A stretch of DNA of 64,000 nt, taken from the NCBI RefSeq assembly GCF_050920415.1, contig NZ_CP169309.1; one strand, written 5' to 3'. This stretch comes from Escherichia coli. Lineage in GTDB: Bacteria > Pseudomonadota > Gammaproteobacteria > Enterobacterales > Enterobacteriaceae. Below the pieces are notes generated by a model. The model saw only the letters and a program-made list of their open reading frames with translations, searched no databases and was not told the origin of the DNA. Below are positions 6,689 to 52,056 of this stretch, in pieces (position 1 is the first letter of the stretch; each line of letters begins with the position of its first letter). The translations under genes were made by a program, and so were the position numbers.

Positions 6689-7165
6689 TCAGTGGAGGAA
6701 ATAGTTTTCGGTAACGTTGTTTTGCCCTTCATCGTCAGTCGGTAACAGCAGTTGATGGGCATTAGCTTCAAGAATGACCATCGAAATCTGCTCTTCGCTC
6801 TGACGCACGAACCATGCAAACTGCTCATAGGTTACGCCCTGCATAACGGATAAAGACTGGCAAACCACCAGCTTTGGCAGATTATCATCCTGCATATCAA
6901 GAAATGCTTTCACGGTCAGCGAACTGGCATTGATGGCTGATAAATCCGCCGCCAGCGGTAACACGGCTGAAGGTCGAACTTCCGCCATGGCAGAAAACAG
7001 GATCGTGTTATCGATCAGATCGATTTTGGCATCAAAGACACCGTCGAAATTCTGCATATGGGGCAGATGCAGAGCCTGACAGTTATCACATTCAAAAAAA
7101 CTCATCCCCAGGTCATCGAGCCATTGACGCAGCGTATCCAGACCAGGAACGACCAGCGATGTCAT
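6689..7165 (-). CDS. ybjN: YbjN, putative sensory transduction regulator
   Basis: Internal start MTSLVVPGLD gives 158 aa matching recalled YbjN. Confidence 0.9.
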   Translation of the reverse strand: MTSLVVPGLDTLRQWLDDLGMSFFECDNCQALHLPHMQNFDGVFDAKIDLIDNTILFSAMAEVRPSAVLPLAADLSAINASSLTVKAFLDMQDDNLPKLVVCQSLSVMQGVTYEQFAWFVRQSEEQISMVILEANAHQLLLPTDDEGQNNVTENYFLH

Positions 7166-7252
7166 AATTTTGTACAACCTCTTTCGATAAAAAGACCGGC
7201 ACAGCTTACGCAAAAAGCGCAGGCAAAACCATGATCAGTAATGTGATTGCGA

Positions 7253-8155
7253 CTAACCACCCGTTTTCAGGCAATATTCGGTCGTAGCGTGGCGTTCGAT
7301 CCAGCGGATCATTTTACCCGCGATGTCAATACCGGTGGTTTTTTCTATTCCTTCCAGCCCCGGCGACGCATTCACCTCCATCACCAATGGCCCGCGATTA
7401 GCACGCAGAATATCCACACCAGCAACGTCCAGCGCCATCGTTCGCGCGGCTTTTATCGCGATTTCACGCTCCTGTGGTGTGATACTGGCAACGCTTGCCG
7501 CGCCACCTCGATGCAAATTGGAACGAAAATCGCCCTCTTTCGCCCGCCGTTCAATCGCAGCGACCACTTCATCGCCAACAACCAGGCAGCGGATATCGCA
7601 CCCTTGCGCCTCTTTGATATATTCCTGCACCAGAATATGCGCGTTCAGACCGCGAAAGGCGTCAATCACGCTTTCCGCCGCCTGACGCGTCTCCGCCAGC
7701 ACGACACCAATTCCCTGCGTACCTTCAACCAGCTTAACCACCAGCGGCGCACCACCGACCATGTCGATTAAATCGCTGGTATCATCCGGCGAATGCGCAA
7801 TGCCCGTGACAGGCAGGTCGATGCCCTGACGCGCCAGCAGTTGCATCGAACGCAATTTGTCACGCGCCCGGGCAATGGCGACCGACTCATTGAGCGGATA
7901 GCTCCCCAGCATCTCGAACTGGCGCAGTGCCGCCGTCCCATAAAAGGTAATGGCGGTGCCAATACGCGGGATCACAGCGTCAAAATGGGGTAACTTGCGG
8001 CCTTTGTAGTGAATAGAAGACGCCGCAGGATTTATGTTCATGTAGCAAGAAAGCGGATCAAGAATTTCAACCAGGTGACCACGCTGTACAGCGGCTTCAC
8101 GCAGCCGCTTACACGAATAGAGCGTTCCATCCCGGGACAATATGGCAATTTTCAC
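7253..8155 (-). CDS. rimK: Ribosomal protein S6 glutamate ligase RimK (ATP-grasp)
   Basis: 300-aa ORF starting [10 protein letters not shown]; ATP-grasp motifs; matches recalled RimK. Confidence 0.95.
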
Positions 8156-8215: not shown

Positions 8216-8938
8216 TTAGCGCGTCGCCCAACCCTGTTTGTGCAAATAATCCAGAATAAATGGGCGGCTTTCTTTAATGATTGTTCGGCGGATATGATCG
8301 CTCCAGGTATCCCTGCGATTATTGCTGCCACGGGTGAGGTAATATTCCGCCAGTTGTTCGTCATACTGCGCCAGTGCGTCTTTATCCAGCGGTTGATAGC
8401 TGTTTTCGTGCACCAAAATGGAAGCCGGTAAACGCGGCTTAAGATCTGGATTATCCGCAGGCCAGCCAAGGCACAGCCCAAACAGCGGCAGAACATGCTG
8501 CGGTAATTTCAGCAGTTCCGTCACCGCTTCAATATTATTGCGCAGGCCGCCGATATATACCCCGCCCAATCCCAGCGATTCCGCTGCGGTTAACGCATTC
8601 TGCGCCATCATTGCCGTATCAACGACACCGAGCAACAGTTGTTCCGCCAGGCCAAGTTGTGCATCCGGACAGATCTGTAAATGGCGGTTAAAGTCGGCAC
8701 AGAACACCCAAAACTCCGCCGCTTTCGCTACGTGTTTTTGCCCGCCGGTCAGCGTCACCAGTTCATCACGTAACGCTTTGTCGGTAATGCGAATAATGCT
8801 ACTGCACTGCAAAAAACTGGAACTGGACGTCGCACGGGCGCTGTTAATAATCGCCTCACGCTGCGCTTCGGAAATGGGTTCATCAGTGAAATGGCGAATG
8901 GAGCGATGGCCACAAATAAGTTCAATGGTTGGCGTCAT
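8216..8938 (-). CDS. nfsA: Oxygen-insensitive NADPH nitroreductase NfsA
   Basis: 240-aa ORF starting MTPTIELICGHRSIRHF matching recalled NfsA. Confidence 0.95.
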   Translation of the reverse strand: MTPTIELICGHRSIRHFTDEPISEAQREAIINSARATSSSSFLQCSSIIRITDKALRDELVTLTGGQKHVAKAAEFWVFCADFNRHLQICPDAQLGLAEQLLLGVVDTAMMAQNALTAAESLGLGGVYIGGLRNNIEAVTELLKLPQHVLPLFGLCLGWPADNPDLKPRLPASILVHENSYQPLDKDALAQYDEQLAEYYLTRGSNNRRDTWSDHIRRTIIKESRPFILDYLHKQGWATR

Positions 8939-9209
8939 TATCTTTTTCTCTTTCTGAACGTGAATATTGCGGTGGACGGTTCATCAGCTGTGGGGCAAGA
9001 CGTTTTGCCACCTGAAGAATAACCACCACCGCAGCGGGAAGCATGAGCAAAACACCGAGAAAAATCATCAGAATCTGCACCTCTGGCCGAGAAAATGGCT
9101 CAGGCAGCGACAGGGAGCCGCTTACCGACAGCAGCGCCACCGCCAGCAACATCATTCCGATAAATTCCAGTATCAACACGCTTTTAGGCAATTTACCGAT
9201 CGCGCGCAT
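8922..9209 (-). CDS. ybjC: Small membrane protein YbjC
   Basis: 95-aa ORF with TM segment; 17-nt overlap with nfsA start; matches recalled YbjC. Confidence 0.85.
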   Translation of the reverse strand: MRAIGKLPKSVLILEFIGMMLLAVALLSVSGSLSLPEPFSRPEVQILMIFLGVLLMLPAAVVVILQVAKRLAPQLMNRPPQYSRSEREKDNDANH

Positions 9210-42671: not shown

Positions 42672-44264
42672 TTACTCGATCCCTTTACTACGCAGGTAAT
42701 CTTCGTAATTACCGCTAAAGTCGATCACGCGTTCCGGGGTGATTTCCAGAATTCGGGTCGCCAGGGAGCTTACAAACTCACGGTCGTGAGAAACAAAGAT
42801 CAGCGTGCCCTGATACAGTTCCAGCGCCATGTTCAGCGACTCAATGGATTCCATATCCAGGTGGTTGGTCGGTTCGTCCATGATCAGAATATTCGGCTTC
42901 TGCATCATTAACTTACCAAACAGCATCCGCCCTTTTTCTCCACCGGAAAGCACTTTCGCTGGCTTTTTGATGTCGTCCTGGCTGAACAGCAAACGACCGA
43001 GAATGCTGCGTACCGCCTGCTCGTCATCGCCTTCCTGCTTCCACTGACTCATCCATTCGAATACGGTCAGATCATTTTCGAACTCATATTCGTGGTCCTG
43101 GGCGTAGTAACCAATGCGCGCGTTTTCAGACCATTTTACGGTGCCGCTGTCCGGTTGCAGATCGCCCACCAGCGTTTTCAGCAGCGTTGATTTACCGACG
43201 CCGTTGGTACCCAGTACCGCCAGTTTTTCACCCACTTCCAGCAGCAGGTTGAGATTTTTAAACAGGGGACCGTTATCAAACCCTTTGGTCAGATCTTCCA
43301 CTTCCAGCGCGTTACGGAACAGTTTCTTATCCTGTTCAAAACGGATGAACGGGTTCTGACGGCTGGAGGCTTTCACCTCTTCAAGTTTGATTTTATCAAT
43401 CTGGCGTGCGCGCGAAGTTGCCTGGCGAGATTTCGAGGCGTTGGCACTAAAGCGGCTAACGAAAGATTGCAACTCAGCAATCTGCGCTTTCTTCTTGGCG
43501 TTATCAGCCAGCAGACGTTCACGCGCCTGAGTCGCCGCCGTCATGTACTCATCGTAGTTGCCCGGATAAACGCGCAGTTCACCGTAATCCAGATCCGCCA
43601 TGTGGGTACAAACCATGTTAAGGAAGTGACGGTCGTGCGAGATGATGATCATGGTGCTGTCACGCTCGTTCAGCACCTGTTCCAGCCAACGAATGGTGTC
43701 GATGTCGAGGTTGTTGGTCGGTTCGTCGAGCAGGAGAATGTCCGGATCAGCAAACAGCGCCTGCGCCAGCAGCACACGCAGCTTCCAGCCAGGAGCAACT
43801 TCACTCATCGGGCCGTAGTGCTGTTCCACTGGAATTCCCACGCCAAGCAACAGTTCACCAGCGCGAGCTTCCGCAGAGTAACCGTCCATTTCGCCGTATT
43901 TCACTTCCAGATCGGCCACTTTATAGCCGTCTTCTTCACTCATTTCCGGCAAAGCATAGATGCGGTCGCGCTCCTGCTTCACTTCCCACAACTCTTTATG
44001 CCCCATGATCACCGTATCCAGCACGGTGAACTCTTCAAAGGCAAACTGATCCTGACGCAATTTACCAATGCGCTCGTTGGGATCGAGGGAAACGTTACCC
44101 AGCGTCGGCTCTAAGTCGCCGCCAAGGATCTTCATAAAGGTGGATTTACCACTACCGTTCGCGCCAATCAGGCCGTAACGGTTGCCGCCGCCAAACTTGA
44201 CGGAAATGTTTTCAAACAACGGCTTACTGCCGAACTGCATGGTGACGTTACTGGAAACTAACAC
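42672..44264 (-). CDS. ybiT: ABC-F family ATPase YbiT
   Basis: 530-aa ORF with two ABC cassettes (GANGSGKST and GTNGVGKST) and no TM domain. Confidence 0.93.
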
Positions 44265-44482
44265 AGGCGTATCCTGAAAAGAGATATGACAAACCGCGTA
44301 TTATGCCATAAGTCTGAAAGAAGATCCCGTCCCCCGCTTAAGGTCTACACTCTTCCCAAAGGCAAAAAATGTGATTTCGTACACATCTGATTTCACTGTG
44401 AGCTGGAATGAACTTATAATGCGCTTCCAATACTCTAATATTCTCAACCCAATGGCCTGCCAGGCACAAAATCTCGCTTAAC

Positions 44483-45403
44483 ATGAATATGAAATTGAAA
44501 ACATTATTCGCAGCGGCCTTCGCTGTTGTCGGCTTTTGCAGTACCGCCTCTGCGGTAACTTATCCTCTGCCAACCGACGGGAGTCGCCTGGTTGGTCAGA
44601 ATCAGGTGATCACCATTCCTGAAGGTAACACTCAGCCGCTGGAGTATTTTGCCGCCGAGTACCAGATGGGTCTTTCCAACATGATGGAAGCTAACCCGGG
44701 TGTGGATACCTTCCTGCCGAAAGGCGGTACTGTACTGAACATTCCGCAGCAGCTGATCCTGCCGGATACCGTTCATGAAGGCATTGTCATTAACAGCGCA
44801 GAGATGCGTCTCTATTACTATCCGAAAGGCAGCAACACCGTTATCGTGCTGCCCATCGGCATTGGTCAGTTAGGCAAAGACACGCCTATCAACTGGACCA
44901 CCAAAGTTGAGCGTAAAAAAGCAGGCCCTACCTGGACGCCGACCGCCAAAATGCACGCAGAGTACCGCGCTGCGGGCGAACCGCTTCCGGCTGTCGTTCC
45001 GGCAGGTCCGGATAACCCGATGGGGCTGTATGCACTCTACATCGGTCGCCTGTACGCTATCCATGGCACCAACGCCAACTTCGGTATCGGCCTGCGTGTA
45101 AGTCATGGTTGTGTGCGTCTGCGTAACGAAGACATCAAATTCCTGTTCGAGAAAGTGCCGGTCGGTACTCGCGTACAGTTTATTGATGAGCCGGTAAAAG
45201 CGACCACCGAGCCTGACGGCAGCCGTTATATTGAAGTCCATAACCCGCTGTCTACCACCGAAGCCCAGTTTGAAGGTCAGGAAATTGTGCCAATTACCCT
45301 GACCAAGAGCGTGCAGACAGTAACTGGTCAGCCTGATGTGGATCAGGTCGTGCTGGATGAAGCGATCAAAAATCGTTCCGGGATGCCGGTTCGTCTGAAT
45401 TAA
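44483..45403 (+). CDS. ldtB: L,D-transpeptidase LdtB (YbiS)
   Basis: 306-aa ORF with signal peptide and catalytic SHGCVRL motif. Confidence 0.93.
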
Positions 45404-45421
45404 TCTTCAAAACTTAAATTA

Positions 45422-45451
45422 AAAGGCGGACTCATAATCCGCCTTTTTTAT
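45422..45451 (+). terminator. Rho-independent terminator after ldtB
   Basis: Hairpin AAAGGCGGACTCATAATCCGCCTTT followed by TTTATTT. Confidence 0.55.
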
Positions 45452-45461
45452 TTGCCAGCAC

Positions 45462-46580
45462 CTAGCTGGCCGGGAACATAACTAACAAAACGTATCCCAC
45501 CAGCGCCGCCCACAACAGCATCGGTATTGAATAGAGATGGAAACGCCACCAGATACGGCGATCGTTTGCCATCCGTAACGCAATCAAATTTGCCAGCGAT
45601 CCGGGTAATAAACCAAAGCCACCCACGTTTACCGCCCATGCCAGTAATAAAGACGGTGGCACATAATTGAGCAGCAAAATCGTGCTCGGCACGTTACTGA
45701 TCACCTGCGATAAACCAATTGCCGTTAACCATAATCCGGGTTCGGATAAATGGCTCACATTGCTCAACACGCCCTGCAAAGCTGGCAGTTGGGTCAGCAA
45801 ATGGACGTCGATAAACATCGCCATAAATACCAGCAGCAGAGTCCAGTCCACGCTGATCACCACGCGACGAGCCAGCAGCGCAAAGCCCGCCGCTACAATC
45901 ACCAGTCCCCACAGCTCTTGTTTTAACTCCAGCGCCGTCAGAAAGACGATATACAGCCCCAGACAACTCCACACCAGCCGCGGTTTCCACTCAGGTGTTT
46001 GCGCCCCCGTATGATATTGCAGCGCCTTTCCAGGGAAACAACACCAGCACAGTAGCAGGAGTGTCAGCATCATTGCGCCAGCCAGCGGTGCCATTTGGGC
46101 AATAAACCCGGCAAACGAAAGACCAGAACGACCCCAGATAAGAATATTTTGCGGGTTGCCAATCGGCGTCAGTAGCGAACCCGCATTGACTGCCAGCGCC
46201 TCAAAAATAATCAGTCGATTAACCGGGATCTCACACAGTCTTTTTAGTGTGATTGTCAGCGGAACAACAATAAACAGCGCGACATCGTTGGTCAGAAATG
46301 TTGAAAGCAACGCCGCCGCCAGCACCATAAACATTGCCAGCCGACGCTCAGTAGCAAAGCGGCGCACCATTTTGCGCCCCAGCACATCAAAATAACCGCT
46401 TAACTCCACACCTTTGGTCAGCAGCATCAGGCCACTGAGGGTGATGATAGTGTGCCAGTCGATAGCAGCAAGCCAGGATTTCGGTGCAAAGGGAACGAAA
46501 AAACTTAATCCGATGCCAACAAGAATTAATAACTGAAAAAAGCGATCGCCTTGTAGCGTGCGTAAAAAAGGCAGGCTCAT
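45462..46580 (-). CDS. ybiR: Putative anion permease YbiR (ArsB/NhaD superfamily)
   Basis: 372-aa multi-TM ORF; ATGA overlap with the mntR stop. Confidence 0.9.
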
Positions 46581-47044
46581 TTGGCACCGTGTTTCTGGGT
46601 AAACAAACGAAAGGCATCCAGCGTCTCTTCACTGACATGGTGCTCCATGCCTTCCGCGTCGCGACGAGCGATTTCCGGGCTGACGCCCAACACCAACAAG
46701 AAATTTTCGACTATCTGATGTCGCTCGCGGCTTTCCTGCGCCAGTTTCTCTCCTTCTGCCGTTAAAAACACGCCACGCCAGGGGATCATTTCAATCAGCC
46801 CCATGGTTGCCAGTCGTTTGAGCATTTTAGCCACCGTCGGTTGCGAAACGCCCAGACGAGCAGCCATGTCCACCTGACGAGCTTCCCCCACTTCCCTGAT
46901 CAAGTCAGAAATCAGCTCAACGTAATCATCAATAAGCTCGCGCCGGTGTGCCTCTCTGACCTGGCGGAACCCTTCAACGTGCTCTTCCACATTCACTAAC
47001 TGCGTCACTTTTTTTGCTGTTGGCGTACCTGCGCGACGACTCAT
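46577..47044 (-). CDS. mntR: Manganese-responsive transcriptional regulator MntR (DtxR family)
   Basis: 155-aa [25 protein letters not shown] matching recalled MntR. Confidence 0.95.
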
Positions 47045-47409
47045 TGTGCTTCCTCATTATGGTGACGCATACATAGCGTTCTCATTTCGTGCGCACATTG
47101 TAAACCAGAGTTGCGAAGGTACAAAAAATTAACGTTTTAGCAATAGCTATATAATATAGCTTTGGACCCCAATAAAAACCAAATGAAAACAATTAATTAT
47201 GAAAGAAATATCATTGTAATGTCGCAAGAATGTCGCAGAATTTTGAATTTTACATCAAACAGAAATCTTACATAAGTCGTCGAAAAGGAAAACTACCAAT
47301 ATCTTTTCGGTGTTTCCTTTCCCCAAATGGAATTTTTCCTGTTATGCTAATATTCGTTTTAAGGTGTTGATAACTAACATTACACAAAGCAATTAGAACG
47401 GATACTAAC

Positions 47410-48984
47410 ATGGCTAAAAACGCAAAAAACGAGAAACCAAAAAAGTTAGCTTATAGAATAAAAAGTATTAATATTGAAAAATTAAAAGGTATAAATAACT
47501 GCCCTATTTCCTTCCCAGCAGACAGGTCTGTAACTGCTATAATGGGAATTAATGGTTCAGGTAAATCAACAATATTGCACGCTCTATCATGTGTTTTCAA
47601 ACCCAAAGAAAAATCATCCCAAGAAAATAATAGATTTTCTGACTTCTTTACCCCTCACAATGAAAATAACTGGCAAGATAGTAAATTCTCAGTAAAATTT
47701 CGAGCGGGAGAGATAAAAAACAATGGTAATAAAGTCTTTTTTGAAGAAATAGATAATGAAGAAAAGAAAGATATTGTTTATGGCAAGGATAAAAGGTGGA
47801 AACCAGTTTACGCAAGAAGACTTGAAAGAGAATCTATATATATAGGATTACAAAATCTTGCAACGTTAGCTGACAATACAGGAGCATCAAGATACTCAGA
47901 ATATGAAAGAGTAGATATTTATGATAAAGATATAAAGAATCAAATGATATTAGCTCTGAATAAAATCTTAGATGCAGATTACAACGATTTGTTTGAATGC
48001 CGCACCATTAAGGGAAACAAAAAATTCATAGGCATGGTTAAAAACGGCATTGAGTATACAGAACATACTATGGGTGCTGGAGAAAAGAGAGTCTTTGAGA
48101 TAGTTAAAAATGTTTATAATGGAAAGTTAATGCCCAATGGTTTTCTAATCATTGATGAAATAGATGTTTTGCTACATGAAAGAGCTTTTCATGAATTAAT
48201 TAATTTTCTTATCGAAGAAAGCAAGTCTATGTGTTTTGAGGTTGTTTTCACAACACATAGAGAATCCATAATAAAGTTTAAAAATCAAATCAATATAGTA
48301 AGTATATGGAACATAGGGAATGGAATAGAGGCTTATCCCGGCGTTTCTGCGGATGCTCTTCGACAGATATCCAATGTAGAACCTGATATGGTCAATGTGT
48401 TTGTAGAAGACAACTTAGCAAAAACAGCACTAAATATTTTAGTTGAAAGTGAAGGTATGAATGAACAAGTTGATATCTCGCTTTTTGGTTCGGCTGAGAA
48501 TTCAGCTGTAATTTTGTCAGGACTTAAATTAACTGGCAAACGAATTGATACAAGCCTGGCAATTTTAGACGGTGATTACTATATTACCCTCCCTGAAAAG
48601 ACCAAAATGGTTGATAGAGTGTTATCTGGAACAGATAAAAAAGTAGAAAAAAAAGAAGTCTTATCAAGAATATTCCAATTCAATTTAGATGTGACTGACG
48701 TCAAAGGCTCTCCAGAAAAAAACCATCGTGATTGGTTTGAATCTATAGACGAAAACAATATTTCGGAAAATGATAAGACAATGTTTCTTAACCTGAAAAA
48801 ACATTCTACAAGTATTGGTGCTTTAACTGATTATCATGAATATTATCCAGAGTTAGCTCGAAGGTCAAAATTAGATAATATTGAGTACAAAGTTTTGAAT
48901 TATATTAGTAAGTATAGTAATAAATGGGATTTTTACATAAATGATATTAGAAATGAAATAAAAAAAGCAATTGCAGCGATCTAA
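47410..48984 (+). CDS. ABC-type ATPase fused to a TOPRIM-like domain; class-1 OLD-family-like nuclease, candidate anti-phage defence protein
   Basis: 524-aa ORF in AT-rich DNA. Walker A GINGSGKST (aa 46-54), signature-like MGAGEKR (221-227), Walker B FLIIDEID (245-252), H-loop TTHR (281-284), then a TOPRIM-like Glu (FVEDN, E333) and DxD (LDGDY, 387-389). Own terminator downstream. Confidence 0.6.
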   Translation: MAKNAKNEKPKKLAYRIKSINIEKLKGINNCPISFPADRSVTAIMGINGSGKSTILHALSCVFKPKEKSSQENNRFSDFFTPHNENNWQDSKFSVKFRAGEIKNNGNKVFFEEIDNEEKKDIVYGKDKRWKPVYARRLERESIYIGLQNLATLADNTGASRYSEYERVDIYDKDIKNQMILALNKILDADYNDLFECRTIKGNKKFIGMVKNGIEYTEHTMGAGEKRVFEIVKNVYNGKLMPNGFLIIDEIDVLLHERAFHELINFLIEESKSMCFEVVFTTHRESIIKFKNQINIVSIWNIGNGIEAYPGVSADALRQISNVEPDMVNVFVEDNLAKTALNILVESEGMNEQVDISLFGSAENSAVILSGLKLTGKRIDTSLAILDGDYYITLPEKTKMVDRVLSGTDKKVEKKEVLSRIFQFNLDVTDVKGSPEKNHRDWFESIDENNISENDKTMFLNLKKHSTSIGALTDYHEYYPELARRSKLDNIEYKVLNYISKYSNKWDFYINDIRNEIKKAIAAI

Positions 48985-48991
48985 ACCTCAT

Positions 48992-49021
48992 AAAAGGCGT
49001 AATTTATACGCCTTTTTTTAA
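48992..49021 (+). terminator. Rho-independent terminator after the OLD-like gene
   Basis: Hairpin AAAAGGCGTAATTTATACGCCTTTT followed by a T-run, 8 nt after the stop. Confidence 0.55.
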
Positions 49022-49181
49022 GGTTTAAATTATAGTTGCTAATTTCTACTCTTTGTTCCCTCTGTTCGTGCACGTTTCAGGTAGTAAGCTCTCCATCGAA
49101 CCATAGAGATTGAACGCTTTGATTTTTTTTTACATACTGTCTGAAGCTCATTTACTAAGTATTGATAGTCAGGATGACAAC

Positions 49182-49808
49182 ATGACCTCCTACGATGAAC
49201 TTAAAGAATGCATCCGCCTTGAAGTCATTGGCCATGACAAATCCTTTTCATGGCGTAAAGCGTTACTTCGTACCCGACGCAACCAGAAGAAGCACTTCCT
49301 GTTCTGGTGGCGTATCGCTTCATGGCTCTATGGCCAGAATAGTAAGTTCAAAAAGCGCATTGCCCGCAGAATTGAAAACCGCCTCAAGTACCTGCATAGC
49401 GTTGATATTTCGCTGTCATGCAAAATCGGCAAGGGTTTAAACATTGCTCATCTGAACGGTATTGTCATTACTGACAATTGCGTGATTGGTGATTTCGCCG
49501 ACCTGAAGCAAGGCATCACCATAGGGTTACGCACCGACAGTGCCGACGCGATGATAGTCATTGGTGATCATGTTGATATTGGCTGTAATTCGTCCATTCT
49601 GGGCGGCAAGGTTACGATCGGAAACAATGTCACCATTGGGGCGCATTCACTGGTACTTCAGAACATCCCCAGCGACACCGTTTATAAAAACAAGATCACG
49701 CCGGTGTATACATCCAAACTACCGCAGCAGGAATATCAGGAAAATCGGCCTTTTGTCACTGGCAAGGCGATAAAAGAAGCGTCCCGTTCCGCAGAAGCGG
49801 TGCTGTAA
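49182..49808 (+). CDS. Hexapeptide-repeat (left-handed beta-helix) acetyltransferase, CysE/WcaB-like
   Basis: Start MTSYDELKE preceded by AGGATG; the 232-aa track start at 49110 has no RBS. N-terminal helical region (RIASWLY...RIARRIENRLKYLHSVDI) then hexapeptide repeats IGKGLNIAH-GIVITDNCVIGD-ITIG-IVIGDHVDIG-VTIGNNVTIGAHSLVL. Confidence 0.6.
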   Translation: MTSYDELKECIRLEVIGHDKSFSWRKALLRTRRNQKKHFLFWWRIASWLYGQNSKFKKRIARRIENRLKYLHSVDISLSCKIGKGLNIAHLNGIVITDNCVIGDFADLKQGITIGLRTDSADAMIVIGDHVDIGCNSSILGGKVTIGNNVTIGAHSLVLQNIPSDTVYKNKITPVYTSKLPQQEYQENRPFVTGKAIKEASRSAEAVL

Positions 49809-50186
49809 TTTCGCTGAACAAATTTCAGTTATGAAGATTGCATAAATTTACGTGCAGCCCGCGCCAGCTCTTACAAGCGGGCTAATCTCTATAATGTCTG
49901 GCTTATCTCCCAACGATCCACGAACACCGCCTAAAATATAATTTTCCCTTTATTATCTGTGCGTTATGATTTTACACCGATCCTTAACAGATCCTCTTTA
50001 CTGAAAAAAATGAAATTTCTTTCAATCATTTCAGTTCCTGTTCTCCGCAAAGCCGCCAGTAATGGTGCGGTCTGGCGCTCTGGTTTGTAGAAAAATAAAA
50101 CTGAAAAAATTTCCAGATCCAGAAACCGCAGGCGGGTGCGGTGTAGCGCCGTTTTTGTCTGCGAAAGATTTATTTTGTCGGCGCAT

Positions 50187-50230
50187 CGCAGCGCCAGCGC
50201 AGCGCCAGCGCAGCGCCAGCGCAGCGCCAT
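50187..50230. repeat. Four tandem copies of an 11-bp unit CGCAGCGCCAG
   Basis: Direct reading: cgcagcgccag x3 then cgcagcgccat, in the non-coding gap between the acetyltransferase and the tail operon. Confidence 0.8.
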
Positions 50231-50315
50231 GCGCACGATCTTTTATGTGTGTTGCGTTGGGTTAATTTGTTGCCTGAAGTGCTGAGGGCGCGTTCTGCTG
50301 CGTCTGAGGAAGGGT

Positions 50316-50342
50316 ATGAAAAAGCCCGCATTATGCGGGCGT
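50316..50342 (-). terminator. Rho-independent terminator at the end of the tail operon
   Basis: On the minus strand, hairpin GCCCGCATAATGCGGGC followed by TTTTTC, 10 nt after the stop of the 567-aa gene. Confidence 0.5.
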
Positions 50343-50352
50343 GTTGTCATGG

Positions 50353-52056
50353 TCAGGCAATTATATTCTGGTACTTGCTCCGGGTCTGCCCTGCTTTCGT
50401 CGCCGTCTGTACGAACGCGTCAGCATTGGTTGGCGTCCCAACAGTGGGGTGTGAATGGTTCGCGCATTGCTGCGCCAGCTCTGCCAGTAAATCAATGGTA
50501 TCCAGCATCATGGTCAGGGCGTTGATACTCTCGCTGCCAATATGGACAGTTGCCCCCATGACCTGCTGACCGCCAGCGGCCACTGATTTACGCAGTGCGG
50601 CAATCTTCTCTGTCAGGCTTTCGCCAACCTCCACGGCTACAGCACCGCCCACTTTAGTGGACTGCTGTCCTGCTATGTCCGTTTCTTCGTTTCCTTCAAT
50701 ACTGGCCAGCCTGTTTCCTTTCACCGCCTGGCTATAATCACCGGCGCTTACCTGCTGGATGGCTCCGGCCAGCAGTGTGGCGGTTCCCAGTACCGTGGTT
50801 TTATCCGTGGCTTTCACCGTGGTTTCACGGCTGACCAGTTCGCGCTGTTCCGTATCGGCTTTTACGGTTCGCGCCATCGATGTTTCGCTGATGGTCTGAT
50901 CGGTCTGCCTTACCCAGTCGCCCGCCTGAGTCACCCTCTGGGATACTTCTTCCCGCTGCTGCTGCAACTGTTCACCGGGTTTAACGTCCGGCAGACTGGT
51001 GCCATCCGGTAGCGTCTGCCTGATAAAAGGTTTATCCGGTCTGCCTCCCGTGAATGCAACCTCAACCAGCGTCCCTTCTGGCGGAAACTGAAACATACCT
51101 GAATCATTCCCGGCCATTGGTACCGGCAGCGGCACCGCTGAATAAACAGGCGTCTGATTGTCCGGGTTTCCGTCTGCGTCAAGCAGCTGCACGTCCACGG
51201 CGTAACGTGGCCGGAAGGGATCGGCAAAGTTACCGCTTTTTACCGGCTCTGAATGCGCCACAACTCTGGCCATCTTTGGCAAATGAAGCCCGGATGCCAG
51301 TTCCGGGTAATGGCTTTCAATCTGCCGTTGCGCCGGTGTTTTCTGCAAAGGTTTACCCGTTGCGCGGTTTCTCGGCGTCCATGTGATCGCCATCGCGTCA
51401 TTAGTCAGGTGAACTTTAGTCACGCGTTCACCGTTCATCTCCACCCCTGGCCGCATAGTCTGGATCACTGGTAATGTCACAGAGTTACCGCCAGCAGCCC
51501 CCTGGCTGAACTCTGACGGGATTTCTACGGGGCGACCGGCAAATAATGACTTTTCTGCGCCGCCGACGTAAAGCGAACCATCAGGCAACTGGTACCAGAT
51601 GTAATCCTGGATACTGAACGCCCTTCCCAGATTGTTCAGCAACTGATAACCAGTACCGTTATGGGTAAAATGTGGGATGGGGGTATCGCTGTACTGTGCA
51701 TCAGGCACACTGACCGTGATCCCGCTGTTTTCTTCCAGCCAGCTGGCAACCTCGCGTAAAGTTGGATGTTGAAATGAGCACGGCCACATCCTTTCAAATA
51801 CACCTGCCAGCTCACGAATGAACAGACGCTGAAAACCGTTTTCAGCGGGCTGCGATCGCTCCACATACCCCGTAAACCAGCGCAAAAGCAGATCGGTATA
51901 CCCCACATCCAGCCGCACCAGTTTTCCGGTGTAATCGGTTGTTGTCTCTGCGGTGATGAAGCCCCGGCCGCAGCTGTTCAGCTCCAGTACCAGGCTGGCA
52001 TCCACCAGGTGAACTTCATCAGTTGAAAGGTAAAGGCGTTTTACTGGTTTCATCAT
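50353..52056 (-). CDS. Phage tail hub/spike-like protein (gpV/VgrG-type OB-fold candidate)
   Basis: 567-aa ORF, last gene of the tail operon; internal segment GTLVEVAFTGGRPDKPFIRQTLPDG resembles the G-x-V-x-V-x-F-x-G-D-x-D-x-P-x-I motif of gpV/gp5/VgrG spikes; Ala/Gly/Thr-rich C-terminal region. Confidence 0.4.
   Translation of the reverse strand: MMKPVKRLYLSTDEVHLVDASLVLELNSCGRGFITAETTTDYTGKLVRLDVGYTDLLLRWFTGYVERSQPAENGFQRLFIRELAGVFERMWPCSFQHPTLREVASWLEENSGITVSVPDAQYSDTPIPHFTHNGTGYQLLNNLGRAFSIQDYIWYQLPDGSLYVGGAEKSLFAGRPVEIPSEFSQGAAGGNSVTLPVIQTMRPGVEMNGERVTKVHLTNDAMAITWTPRNRATGKPLQKTPAQRQIESHYPELASGLHLPKMARVVAHSEPVKSGNFADPFRPRYAVDVQLLDADGNPDNQTPVYSAVPLPVPMAGNDSGMFQFPPEGTLVEVAFTGGRPDKPFIRQTLPDGTSLPDVKPGEQLQQQREEVSQRVTQAGDWVRQTDQTISETSMARTVKADTEQRELVSRETTVKATDKTTVLGTATLLAGAIQQVSAGDYSQAVKGNRLASIEGNEETDIAGQQSTKVGGAVAVEVGESLTEKIAALRKSVAAGGQQVMGATVHIGSESINALTMMLDTIDLLAELAQQCANHSHPTVGTPTNADAFVQTATKAGQTRSKYQNIIA

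What the first reader, a model, noticed from the sequence alone, without database searches (positions are those of the whole stretch)
49182..49808. CysE/WcaB-like hexapeptide acetyltransferase as second cargo gene next to the OLD-like gene
A hexapeptide acetyltransferase is an unusual neighbour for an OLD-like nuclease. Either it is an independent lysogenic-conversion moron (for example O-acetylation of a surface polysaccharide that could alter phage receptors), or it is a functional partner of the ATPase-nuclease in a two-gene system I cannot name. Composition differs from the ATPase gene (less AT-rich) and a terminator separates them, suggesting separate acquisition or separate transcription.
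Basis: partly seen in the sequence, partly recalled or inferred. Interest (0 to 1): 0.55.

Follow-up and report, generated by a model that had tools for sequence, protein, structure and literature searches.

The report
Stand-alone prophage acetyltransferase cargo gene
The gene is a real, intact hexapeptide-repeat acetyltransferase carried as an independent cargo gene at the end of a P2-family prophage; it is not a partner of the neighbouring defence ATPase and is not a true serine acetyltransferase, and it is an ordinary kind of prophage accessory gene whose acceptor is still unknown.

Summary
Observation confirmed. Window 49182-49808 (+) encodes an intact 208-aa left-handed beta-helix (LbH) acetyltransferase under purifying selection. 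An intrinsic terminator separates it from the upstream ATPase gene, and the GC contents differ (47.7% vs 31.5%).

The two genes lie in a variable cargo slot between the left attachment junction (~47163, next to mntR) and the tail/baseplate genes of a Quadragintavirus-type (Peduoviridae) prophage.

The "two-gene system" reading is not supported.
- The acetyltransferase occurs without the ATPase in dozens of related prophages and in phages ESSI2_ev015 and ev129.
- The ATPase occurs without the acetyltransferase in Enterobacter (same slot) and Klebsiella.
- The ATPase belongs to HEC-04/IbfA, a single-gene ABC-ATPase-TOPRIM defence shown experimentally to work alone.

The acetyltransferase is PHROG 2154 (function unknown).
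- It keeps the CysE catalytic Asp/His dyad.
- It lacks the serine-binding residues and the full N-terminal domain.
- It scores below every NCBIfam cut-off, so "serine acetyltransferase" is an over-annotation.
- Relatives sit beside tail-fibre genes in P1-, P2- and Mu-like phages. The one more distant cellular relative with a clear context lies in an Acinetobacter capsule locus.

Most likely it is a cytoplasmic O-acetyltransferase of a surface-polysaccharide precursor, that is, lysogenic conversion or receptor masking. That step is inferred. Interest is low to moderate.

The parts
47161..47164 (.). Left prophage/chromosome junction (attL side). Homology to the E. coli K-12 mntR-rybA/mntS intergenic region ends here.
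   Evidence: blastn against MG1655: the match ends at window 47160, which is the 5' end of rybA in K-12. All related lysogens share 47000-47163 at 99-100% and then diverge.
47410..48984 (+). Neighbouring cargo gene: a 524-aa ABC-ATPase-TOPRIM protein, HEC-04/IbfA-like (OLD-like in the broad sense). It is an independent single-gene defence candidate and not part of the acetyltransferase unit.
   Evidence: PADLOC HEC-04 3e-33 and ATPase-Toprim_I-B 1e-20. Pfam SMC_N/AAA_15. Walker A K52, E333, D387xD389. GC 31.5%. The 85% homolog sits in the same slot in Enterobacter without the acetyltransferase.
48992..49020 (+). Intrinsic terminator after the ATPase gene: a 10-bp stem, 5-nt loop and U-run.
   Evidence: RNA fold -19.7 kcal/mol, z = -6.77, 0 of 200 shuffles as stable. 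Sequence read.
49110..49138 (+). Candidate own promoter of the acetyltransferase (TTGAAC, 17 nt, CATACT; 8 of 12 matches). It is weak and inferred.
   Evidence: Read from the sequence. Conserved in OZ547246 and in phage ev015, which lacks the ATPase. Below the threshold of the scan.
49171..49174 (+). Shine-Dalgarno AGGA, 7 nt before the ATG.
   Evidence: GTCAGGATGAC is conserved in all six upstream contexts.
49182..49808 (+). LbH (hexapeptide-repeat) acetyltransferase gene, 208 aa plus stop. PHROG 2154.
49182..49394 (+). N-terminal four-helix domain (aa 1-71). It matches only the last part of the CysE N-terminal domain (FWWRIA corresponds to CysE YRIGHWLW).
   Evidence: AF2 helices 4-16, 24-32, 35-50 and 55-71, pLDDT above 90. 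Alignment with CysE.
49395..49691 (+). Left-handed beta-helix catalytic domain (aa 72 to about 170) with dyad Asp75 (nt 49404-49406) and His90 (nt 49449-49451).
   Evidence: AF2 strands. D75/H90 align with CysE D143/H158.
49707..49805 (+). Disordered C-terminal extension (aa 176-208). It is absent from most homologs and is not under protein-level constraint.
   Evidence: pLDDT 46-63. Nd 16.5 vs Sd 1.5 against the P0002 allele. Homologs of 176-190 aa end before it.
49617..49808 (+). 3' segment shared at 85-88% nucleotide identity with a second, divergent allele type. This places a recombination breakpoint inside the gene.
   Evidence: the protein cores are only 49% identical.
50324..50340 (-). 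Terminator of the convergent late (tail/baseplate) operon. It marks the inner end of the cargo slot.
   Evidence: Terminator scan. The baseplate gene 50353-52056 (-) matches PHROG 2258 at 5.6e-276.

Best explanation
The gene is a self-contained prophage moron. It sits in the variable cargo slot between the attachment site and the end of the tail operon of a Quadragintavirus-type (P2-family) prophage. It is read from its own weak promoter, convergent with the late genes. It encodes a soluble, presumably trimeric, acetyl-CoA-dependent LbH O-acetyltransferase that uses an Asp75/His90 general-base dyad like CysE.

Its acceptor is not L-serine. The most likely acceptor is a sugar hydroxyl of a cytoplasmic surface-polysaccharide precursor (an Und-PP-linked O-antigen, capsule or colanic-acid-type unit, or lipid A-core before flipping), as for WcaB, WbbJ and the prophage enzyme NeuO. 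The lysogen's surface would then be altered, giving serotype conversion and masking of phage receptors.

It works independently of the adjacent HEC-04/IbfA-like ATPase-TOPRIM defence gene, which is a separately acquired module in the same hotspot.

Shown: gene reality, fold, retained dyad, loss of the serine-binding residues, independence from the ATPase, and the hotspot architecture. Inferred: the sugar acceptor, expression in the lysogen, and the phenotypic consequence.
For: **Independence from the ATPase**
- The 89%-identical allele P0002 was seen in 24 contigs read (73 index blocks), directly next to mntR with no ATPase.
- The 95% allele P0001 lies in the same phage family at another integration site, with no ATPase.
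- Phage ESSI2_ev015 (95.7%) carries the gene right after int/attP, with no ATPase in the record. Phage ev129 also holds the gene (93.3%); its neighbourhood was not inspected, but the ATPase is absent from all but one complete E. coli genome.
- AP031375 has a reverse-transcriptase gene in place of the ATPase.
- The 85% ATPase homolog sits in the same slot in Enterobacter without the acetyltransferase (24 contigs).
- The 51% ATPase homolog sits in a Klebsiella island (485 index blocks) without it.
- The ATPase is in 1 of 5,426 complete E. coli genomes.
- HEC-04 and IbfA act as single genes.
- The two modules have separate borders, a terminator between them and a 16-point GC difference.

**Enzyme**
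- Hexapep/LbH fold.
- D75/H90 equal CysE D143/H158.
- 52 of 62 homologs keep an acid/amide + His pair.
- Core dN/dS is 0.10.
- No transmembrane segment: maximum Kyte-Doolittle 19-mer 1.07.

**Not a serine acetyltransferase**
- The CysE serine-binding positions D92, D157, R192 and H193 are absent, Ala, Ala and Met.
- Scores are below the cut-offs: cysE 82.5 < 210.65, EpsC 89 < 150, WcaB 66 < 195.

**Sugar acceptor or surface role (indirect)**
- The best family-level resemblances are EPS and colanic-acid acetyltransferases.
- Of three cellular relatives examined (30-41% identity), only the Acinetobacter one has a clear polysaccharide context: a capsule locus among glycosyltransferases, Wza and the initiating transferase. 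The Staphylococcus copy lies about 4 kb from capsule-type genes and next to a PGA_cap gene, which is ambiguous.
- Phage relatives lie 3'-to-3' with tail-fibre or tail-fibre-assembly genes in phiNP, yong2, 613R2, the P1-like JL22, a P1-like plasmid contig and a 48-kb phage-plasmid. In S. thermophilus phages the gene follows the antireceptor gene.
- There is precedent for a prophage-borne LbH O-acetyltransferase in NeuO of CUS-3 (PMC3046976).
- Acetyltransferases are encoded by 5-30% of Klebsiella prophages per K-locus, and two were among that study's strongest GWAS predictors of K-locus (KL30, KL111) (PMC13123978).
Against: - No acceptor was identified and no experiment exists for any PHROG 2154 member. 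The P1-like plasmid literature calls the gene's presence unexplained.
- Within this phage family the same acetyltransferase allele travels with different tail-fibre types (524-aa Collar type and 682-aa Gp53-like type). Strict receptor/tail-fibre co-specificity is therefore not evident here.
- Adjacency to tail genes may only reflect that operon ends are favoured moron insertion sites.
- The slot also holds candidate defence genes, so an intracellular defence or counter-defence role is not excluded.
- Ten of 62 homologs have replaced both dyad residues. Some family members may therefore use another mechanism or be non-catalytic.
- The Limnobaculum relative (41% identity) sits in a context with no polysaccharide genes.
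- The promoter is weak and only inferred (8 of 12 matches).
Confidence: 0.5

Rival explanations
1. The acetyltransferase and the ATPase-TOPRIM protein form a two-gene defence system. For example, the acetyltransferase acts as effector, modifier or antitoxin of the nuclease.
For: They are adjacent, on the same strand and 197 bp apart in the window, in OZ547246 and in GCA_902844105. The ATPase-bearing E. coli genome also has the acetyltransferase.
Against: - Each gene is found repeatedly without the other.
- A strong terminator lies between them.
- GC contents are 31.5% and 47.7%.
- The recombination modules are separate.
- HEC-04 and IbfA confer defence as single genes.
- PADLOC has no model that matches the acetyltransferase.
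Confidence: 0.03
2. It is a stand-alone intracellular anti-phage or counter-defence enzyme. It would acetylate a phage or host protein, a nucleotide signal or a small molecule rather than a surface sugar, and it occupies the slot because the slot is a defence hotspot.
For: In other lysogens the same slot holds an HEC-04-like ATPase, a reverse-transcriptase gene, DUF4760, DUF6338 and other single unknown genes. PHROG 2154 has no assigned function. The family is widespread in temperate phages and phage-plasmids.
Against: - No hit to any of 5,027 PADLOC models.
- The closest characterised families are polysaccharide and serine O-acetyltransferases.
- The one cellular relative with a clear context is in a capsule locus.
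- No LbH enzyme is known to me as a defence effector (own knowledge).
Confidence: 0.15
3. It is a genuine serine O-acetyltransferase (a CysE isozyme), that is, an auxiliary metabolic gene that boosts cysteine synthesis. This is what RefSeq and GenBank annotate.
For: Database names. The best PDB sequence and fold matches are CysE. The catalytic dyad is retained.
Against: - The four serine/cysteine-binding residues of CysE are not conserved.
- About 100 residues of the N-terminal SATase_N domain are missing, and there is no PF06426 hit.
- The TIGR01172 score is 82.5 against a cut-off of 210.65.
- The C-terminus ends ...AVL rather than the CysK-binding ...GDGI.
Confidence: 0.04
4. It is a xenobiotic or antibiotic acetyltransferase (Vat/CatB-type), or another small-molecule detoxifying LbH enzyme.
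For: The size (about 210 aa) and the LbH fold fit the class. Prophages and phage-plasmids sometimes carry resistance genes (blaCTX-M on JL22).
Against: No Vat, CatB or streptogramin model appears among the 25 best of 29 NCBIfam hits. Galactoside and maltose acetyltransferase models score only E 2e-4 to 3e-3 over about 45 residues. The N-terminal helical domain is of the CysE/WcaB type.
Confidence: 0.05

Closest known systems
PHROG 2154 (uncharacterised phage LbH proteins, usually annotated 'serine acetyltransferase'). Examples: ESSI2_ev015 gp40, phiNP sat (ORF4), JL22 sacF, Hafnia phage yong2 QXN68746.
   Same: The match is full length (E 1.4e-55, residues 4-175 on profile 6-177/185). Identity is 95.7% to ev015 gp40. 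The members share a short helical N-domain plus LbH and a location at the end of the tail module of temperate phages.
   Different: Nothing essential differs. This copy has a 30-residue disordered C-terminal extension and, unusually, an ATPase gene inserted upstream. No member of the family has a tested function.
NeuO, the polysialic-acid O-acetyltransferase of prophage CUS-3 in E. coli K1.
   Same: It is a prophage-borne, soluble, trimeric LbH O-acetyltransferase with a catalytic His that modifies a surface polysaccharide of the lysogen (PMC3046976). This is the proposed functional analogy.
   Different: NeuO belongs to the NodL/LacA/OatWY branch, with a catalytic His/Trp pair and an N-terminal phase-variable heptad repeat. 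The present protein is of the CysE/WcaB branch, has an Asp/His dyad, and shows no 5' repeat tract (one search covers only 49700-50400, but none is visible in the sequence read). Direct sequence comparison with NeuO was not run.
WcaB (colanic acid) and EpsC-type EPS O-acetyltransferases.
   Same: These are the best family-level resemblances after CysE. They share the short N-terminal helices plus LbH, the Glu/Asp + His dyad, and the lack of the CysE serine-binding residues.
   Different: Identity to E. coli WcaB is only 31%. Scores are far below the equivalog cut-offs (66 < 195 and 89 < 150). The gene is not in a polysaccharide gene cluster.
CysE serine O-acetyltransferase.
   Same: Same LbH core, the last N-domain helices and the catalytic Asp143/His158 equivalents. 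It is the best PDB match by sequence and by fold.
   Different: It lacks about 100 N-terminal residues, all four substrate-binding residues and the CysK-binding C-terminus. The score is below the cut-off.
Att-proximal and tail-adjacent lysogenic-conversion genes of temperate phages (P22 gtrABC, Sf6 oac, D3 O-acetylase).
   Same: Same position logic, a cargo gene between the attachment site and the tail or tailspike genes, and the same proposed outcome, modification of the O-antigen or receptor (own knowledge; the general statement is, PMC12373910).
   Different: Those acetylases are integral-membrane acyltransferase-3 proteins that act outside the cytoplasm. This one is a soluble LbH enzyme with no transmembrane segment, so it must act on a cytoplasmic precursor.

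Membership tests
LbH / hexapeptide-repeat acyltransferase superfamily | [quoted passage not shown] | tested here: met
   Pfam Hexapep 7e-4. The AF2 model, pLDDT 88.8, has regular short strands at 73-146. All 50 Foldseek hits listed are CysE-type LbH serine acetyltransferases.
LbH / hexapeptide-repeat acyltransferase superfamily | Catalytic histidine in the loop facing the acceptor site | tested here: met
   His90 aligns with CysE His158, and Asp75 with Asp143.
LbH / hexapeptide-repeat acyltransferase superfamily | Homotrimer with acetyl-CoA bound at subunit interfaces | not testable with these tools
   Only a monomer model was made. No multimer or ligand prediction was available.
CysE serine O-acetyltransferase (TIGR01172 / PRK11132) | Score above the curated equivalog cut-off | tested here: not met
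   82.5 bits against 210.65, and 61.3 against 397.
CysE serine O-acetyltransferase (TIGR01172 / PRK11132) | Full N-terminal alpha-helical SATase_N domain (about 140 aa) | tested here: not met
   No PF06426 hit. Only 71 residues precede the LbH, and they align with CysE from about residue 105.
CysE serine O-acetyltransferase (TIGR01172 / PRK11132) | L-serine/L-cysteine binding residues Asp92, Asp157, Arg192, His193 (E. coli numbering; the roles are from my knowledge of the CysE structures) | tested here: not met
   The aligned positions are gap, Ala89, Ala123 and Met124.
CysE serine O-acetyltransferase (TIGR01172 / PRK11132) | C-terminal tail ending in Ile that docks into CysK | tested here: not met
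   The protein ends ...SAEAVL, whereas CysE ends ...YGDGI.
WcaB colanic-acid acetyltransferase (TIGR04016) | Score above the cut-off and location in the wca cluster | tested here: not met
   65.9 bits against 194.65. 31% identity to K-12 WcaB. The gene is in a prophage, not in wca.
EpsC-type EPS acetyltransferase (NF041874) | Score above the cut-off | tested here: not met
   89.1 bits against 150.
PHROG 2154 | Full-length match to the family profile | tested here: met
   E 1.4e-55, 188.7 bits, residues 4-175 on profile 6-177 of 185.
Two-gene system with the HEC-04/OLD-like ATPase | Conserved co-occurrence and co-transcription of the two genes across genomes | tested here: not met
   Each gene is found without the other in many genomes. 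A terminator lies between them. HEC-04 and IbfA work as single genes.
Known anti-phage defence proteins (PADLOC-DB 2.0) | Match to any defence-protein model | tested here: not met
   0 families at E <= 0.01.
Prophage lysogenic-conversion O-acetyltransferase (functional class, e.g. NeuO) | Encoded on a prophage, outside the structural and replication modules, as an autonomous transcription unit | tested here: met
   The slot lies between attL and the late-operon terminator. The gene is convergent with the tail genes and has its own RBS and candidate promoter.
Prophage lysogenic-conversion O-acetyltransferase (functional class, e.g. NeuO) | Demonstrated acetylation of a surface polysaccharide of the lysogen | not testable with these tools
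   This needs chemistry (NMR/MS of LPS, capsule and ECA) on strains with and without the gene.

The most novel reading that the evidence does not exclude
PHROG 2154 may be a widespread, uncharacterised class of tail-module-linked LbH enzymes of temperate Enterobacterales phages and phage-plasmids (P1-, P2- and Mu-like). They are systematically mis-annotated as serine acetyltransferases. On this reading they mask the phage's own receptor class, or otherwise exclude competing phages, by acetylating an envelope precursor not so far known to be phage-modified, such as LPS core or ECA. One subclade has swapped the Asp/His dyad for Thr/Tyr and would use a different chemistry.
Probability: 0.2. Interest if true: 0.5.

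Novelty: new member of a known kind. Interest (0 to 1): 0.25.

Why it matters
**Practical value**
- It corrects an annotation. "Serine O-acetyltransferase" is propagated through RefSeq and GenBank for this phage family, and the label fails every defining test.
- It shows that the gene pair is a chance juxtaposition in a modular prophage cargo hotspot. Screens for new defence systems should not score it as a two-gene system.

**Biological value.** If the enzyme acetylates an envelope polysaccharide, it would be another case of prophage-driven serotype or receptor conversion in E. coli. That bears on phage host range, serotyping and vaccine antigens. The concept is already established (NeuO, Oac, the Klebsiella prophage acetyltransferases), so the gain is incremental.

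Tried and rejected
- **BFVD structure search.** Foldseek against viral predicted structures gave no useful neighbour (best TM 0.29).
- **Consensus scans.** The terminator scan missed the ATPase terminator, and the promoter scan found nothing above chance (12 found, 10.5 expected). The terminator was confirmed by folding instead.
- **Pfam on the ATPase.** It sees only the ATPase half. TOPRIM is supported only by the PADLOC profiles and by motifs read from the sequence.
- **Literature.** Searches for a characterised phage "serine acetyltransferase" found only genome descriptions that call it a fitness factor or unexplained.
- **CysK-binding decoy idea.** I considered that the disordered C-terminal tail might mimic the CysE tail. 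I rejected this because there is no terminal Ile and the tail is not conserved at the protein level.
- **Upstream TTG start at 49110.** I considered a 232-aa product and rejected it, because homology to other alleles starts at 49168.
- **Not run.** The 1.84-billion-protein representative search was skipped, since it carries no annotation or context and could not decide the acceptor. No allele-versus-serotype association test was made.
Full report
**Setting**

The window is E. coli chromosome. ybiT, ldtB, ybiR and mntR occupy 42672-47044. Homology to K-12 stops at about 47160-47163, exactly at the 5' end of rybA/mntS in MG1655.

From there a prophage begins. Its tail and baseplate genes run on the minus strand from 50353 (PHROG 2258 baseplate, E 5.6e-276). 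The prophage is collinear with Escherichia phage ESSI2_ev015 (NC_049395; Peduoviridae, genus Quadragintavirus). In that record the order is integrase, attP region, "serine acetyltransferase", three small ORFs, baseplate. The finding therefore lies in the cargo slot between the attachment site and the end of the late operon of a P2-family temperate phage.

**Checking the observation**

The ORF is real.
- ATG 49182 to stop 49808 gives 208 aa, preceded by AGGA.
- Seven alleles from different genomes are all 627 nt without internal stops.
- Pairwise dN/dS is 0.07-0.29, and 0.10 for codons 1-175.
- The upstream TTG at 49110 is not the start. Alleles in other contexts share sequence only from 49168 onward.

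It is a hexapeptide/LbH protein.
- Pfam Hexapep, E 7e-4.
- NCBIfam EpsC 2.6e-25, cysE 3.4e-23, WcaB 2.8e-18.
- PDB sequence hits are all serine acetyltransferases.
- The AlphaFold2 model (pLDDT 88.8) has four N-terminal helices, an LbH, and a disordered tail from about residue 180.
- The Foldseek neighbours are CysE structures.
- There is no transmembrane segment.

- GC is 31.5% for the ATPase and 47.7% for the acetyltransferase, against 51.7% for flanking host genes.
- The ATPase gene is followed by a strong hairpin plus U-run at 48992-49020 (-19.7 kcal/mol, z = -6.8).

**Are the two genes partners?**

No.

In 5,426 complete E. coli genomes the ATPase gene occurs once, in OZ547246. A full-length acetyltransferase copy occurs twice. 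One is in OZ547246 with the ATPase. The other is in AP031375, where a reverse-transcriptase-domain gene on the other strand takes the ATPase's place.

Acetyltransferase without ATPase:
- The 89%-identical allele P0002 is recorded in 73 index blocks. In all 24 contigs read it sits directly beside mntR with no ATPase, followed by a DUF4760 gene.
- The 95% allele P0001 lies in the same phage family integrated at a different site, beside ybjL, again alone.
- Phage ev015 carries it alone. Phage ev129 also carries the gene; its neighbourhood was not inspected.

ATPase without acetyltransferase:
- The 85%-identical ATPase P0124 occupies the same mntR-proximal slot of the related prophage in the Enterobacter cloacae complex (24 contigs).
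- The 51% homolog P0157 is in a Klebsiella pneumoniae island with no LbH gene nearby (485 blocks).

Pairwise blastn shows separate module borders. The ATPase module is 47164 to about 49076. The acetyltransferase module runs from 49077 (ev015 type) or 49168 (P0002 type) to 49871/49941. Co-occurrence was seen only in the window, OZ547246 and GCA_902844105.

The ATPase's best model is PADLOC HEC-04 (3e-33), then ATPase-Toprim_I-B. It has Walker A K52 and TOPRIM E333/D387xD389. HEC-04 is a single ABC-ATPase-TOPRIM protein that defends E. coli by itself, with its Walker A and metal-site mutants inactive (bioRxiv 10.1101/2024.01.29.577857). The plasmid gene ibfA is its homolog (PMC12111858). The ATPase therefore needs no partner.

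**The slot is a cargo hotspot**

Related prophages at the same junction show many contents:
- a divergent LbH allele alone;
- LbH plus DUF4760;
- DUF6338 plus two small ORFs;
- single unknown genes of 345 or 411 aa;
- the ATPase alone.

The LbH gene is the most frequent occupant seen, but it too is replaceable.

Two LbH allele types share their last ~190 nt at 85-88%, although their protein cores are only 49% identical. The C-terminal 33 codons show 16.5 non-synonymous against 1.5 synonymous differences and are disordered in the model. Recombination therefore cuts inside the gene, and the tail is not a constrained part of the enzyme.

**What the enzyme is and is not**

In an alignment with E. 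coli CysE and WcaB, Asp75 and His90 fall on the CysE catalytic dyad Asp143/His158. The CysE positions that hold L-serine or L-cysteine (Asp92, Asp157, Arg192, His193; roles from the published CysE structures, my knowledge) are a gap, Ala89, Ala123 and Met124.

Further points against CysE membership:
- About 100 residues of the CysE N-domain are missing, and there is no SATase_N hit.
- The C-terminus is not the CysK-docking ...GDGI.
- Every NCBIfam score is well below its cut-off.

The database name "serine O-acetyltransferase" is thus a resemblance, not a membership. WcaB and EpsC membership fail as well.

The protein does belong, over its full length, to PHROG 2154 (E 1.4e-55), a phage family with no assigned function.

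**Clues to the acceptor**

All of these are indirect.
1. The closest characterised families apart from CysE are exopolysaccharide and colanic-acid O-acetyltransferases.
2. Three cellular relatives were examined (30-41% identity). An Acinetobacter gene is embedded in a capsule locus between glycosyltransferases, with Wza, a UDP-sugar dehydrogenase and the initiating transferase nearby. A Staphylococcus relative lies about 4 kb from capsule-type genes, which is ambiguous. A Limnobaculum relative has an uninformative context.
3. Phage relatives are placed 3'-to-3' with tail-fibre-assembly and tail-fibre genes in Citrobacter phage phiNP, Hafnia phage yong2, vB_EcoM-613R2, the P1-like JL22, a P1-like plasmid contig and a 48-kb phage-plasmid. 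In S. thermophilus 987-group phages the gene directly follows the antireceptor gene.
4. There are precedents. NeuO of prophage CUS-3 is a soluble LbH O-acetyltransferase that modifies the K1 capsule (PMC3046976). In Klebsiella, 5-30% of prophages per K-locus encode acetyltransferases, and two were among the strongest GWAS predictors of K-locus (PMC13123978).

Because the protein is soluble and cytoplasmic, it would have to act on a nucleotide-sugar, an Und-PP-linked unit or lipid A-core before export. WcaB and WbbJ do this. The membrane acyltransferase-3 enzymes Oac and OafA do not (own knowledge).

**Caveats**

- No member of the family has been tested. Papers that mention it call it a "fitness" gene or say its presence is unexplained.
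- In this phage family one LbH allele travels with two different tail-fibre types. Tail-fibre linkage may therefore just reflect that operon ends are preferred moron sites.
- Ten of 62 homologs, among them the abundant P1-like copy and the Acinetobacter K-locus gene, have replaced both dyad residues together (Thr/Lys/Ile/Val + Tyr). The chemistry may therefore differ within the family. The window protein has the canonical pair.
- An intracellular defence or counter-defence role cannot be excluded, given the company the gene keeps. PADLOC has no matching model.

**Verdict**

The gene is a new member of a known kind, a prophage-borne LbH O-acetyltransferase cargo gene. Its database name is wrong and its acceptor is unknown.

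Interest is low to moderate (0.25). The more novel reading, a general tail-linked receptor-masking enzyme family, has a probability of about 0.2.

Noticed in passing
window 50187-50235: A tandem 11-mer (CGCAGCGCCAG, 4.4 copies, 97% matches) lies in the non-coding stretch between the acetyltransferase and the baseplate gene. It falls inside a mechanical 90-aa ORF (49964-50236, minus strand) that has no PHROG hit. This stretch differs between otherwise related prophages: homology to OZ547246 stops at 50179.
   Followed up: no
homologs P0021-P0023, P0027-P0030, P0033, P0041, P0065; L008:4989-5531 (Hafnia phage yong2): A subclade of the LbH family has lost both catalytic-dyad residues together (Asp/Glu to Thr/Lys/Ile/Val and His to Tyr). 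It accounts for 10 of 62 aligned homologs. It includes the P1-like phage-plasmid copy with 783 member sequences and an Acinetobacter capsule-locus gene. This suggests an alternative catalytic mechanism or pseudoenzymes.
   Followed up: partly
window 49617-49808: The last ~190 nt of the gene are shared at 85-88% nucleotide identity with a second LbH allele type whose protein core is only 49% identical. The final 33 codons evolve with Nd far above Sd and are predicted disordered. This points to an intragenic recombination breakpoint and an unconstrained tail.
   Followed up: partly
L002 (AP031375) 8353-9117, minus strand: In the same slot, at the position of the ATPase, another E. coli carries a 254-aa reverse-transcriptase-domain gene next to the same acetyltransferase. 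It sits beside a decayed P2-like prophage with truncated portal and replication genes. It may be a retron, Abi or DRT-type defence gene; it was not analysed.
   Followed up: no
L009-L016 about 6764-7432 (minus strand); L005 6251-7733; L043 2781-3818; L044 2850-4085: Other occupants of the same prophage slot are a 222-aa DUF4760 protein, DUF6338 plus two small ORFs, and single unknown genes of 345 and 411 aa. The att-proximal end of Quadragintavirus-type prophages behaves as a cargo or defence hotspot that could be mined.
   Followed up: no
window 47410-48984: The ATPase neighbour has Walker A K52 and TOPRIM motifs E333 and D387xD389, with spacing close to the published HEC-04 residues E319/D375/D377. 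Its nucleotide sequence is found in only 1 of 5,426 complete E. coli genomes, and a 79% nucleotide-identity copy sits in the same prophage slot in Enterobacter.
   Followed up: partly
window 47045-47163 and the MG1655 mntR-rybA intergenic region: The prophage is inserted immediately upstream of the 5' end of the rybA/mntS transcript. It therefore separates mntS from the shared MntR-regulated intergenic region. A possible effect on mntS regulation was not examined, and the right junction lies outside the window.
   Followed up: no
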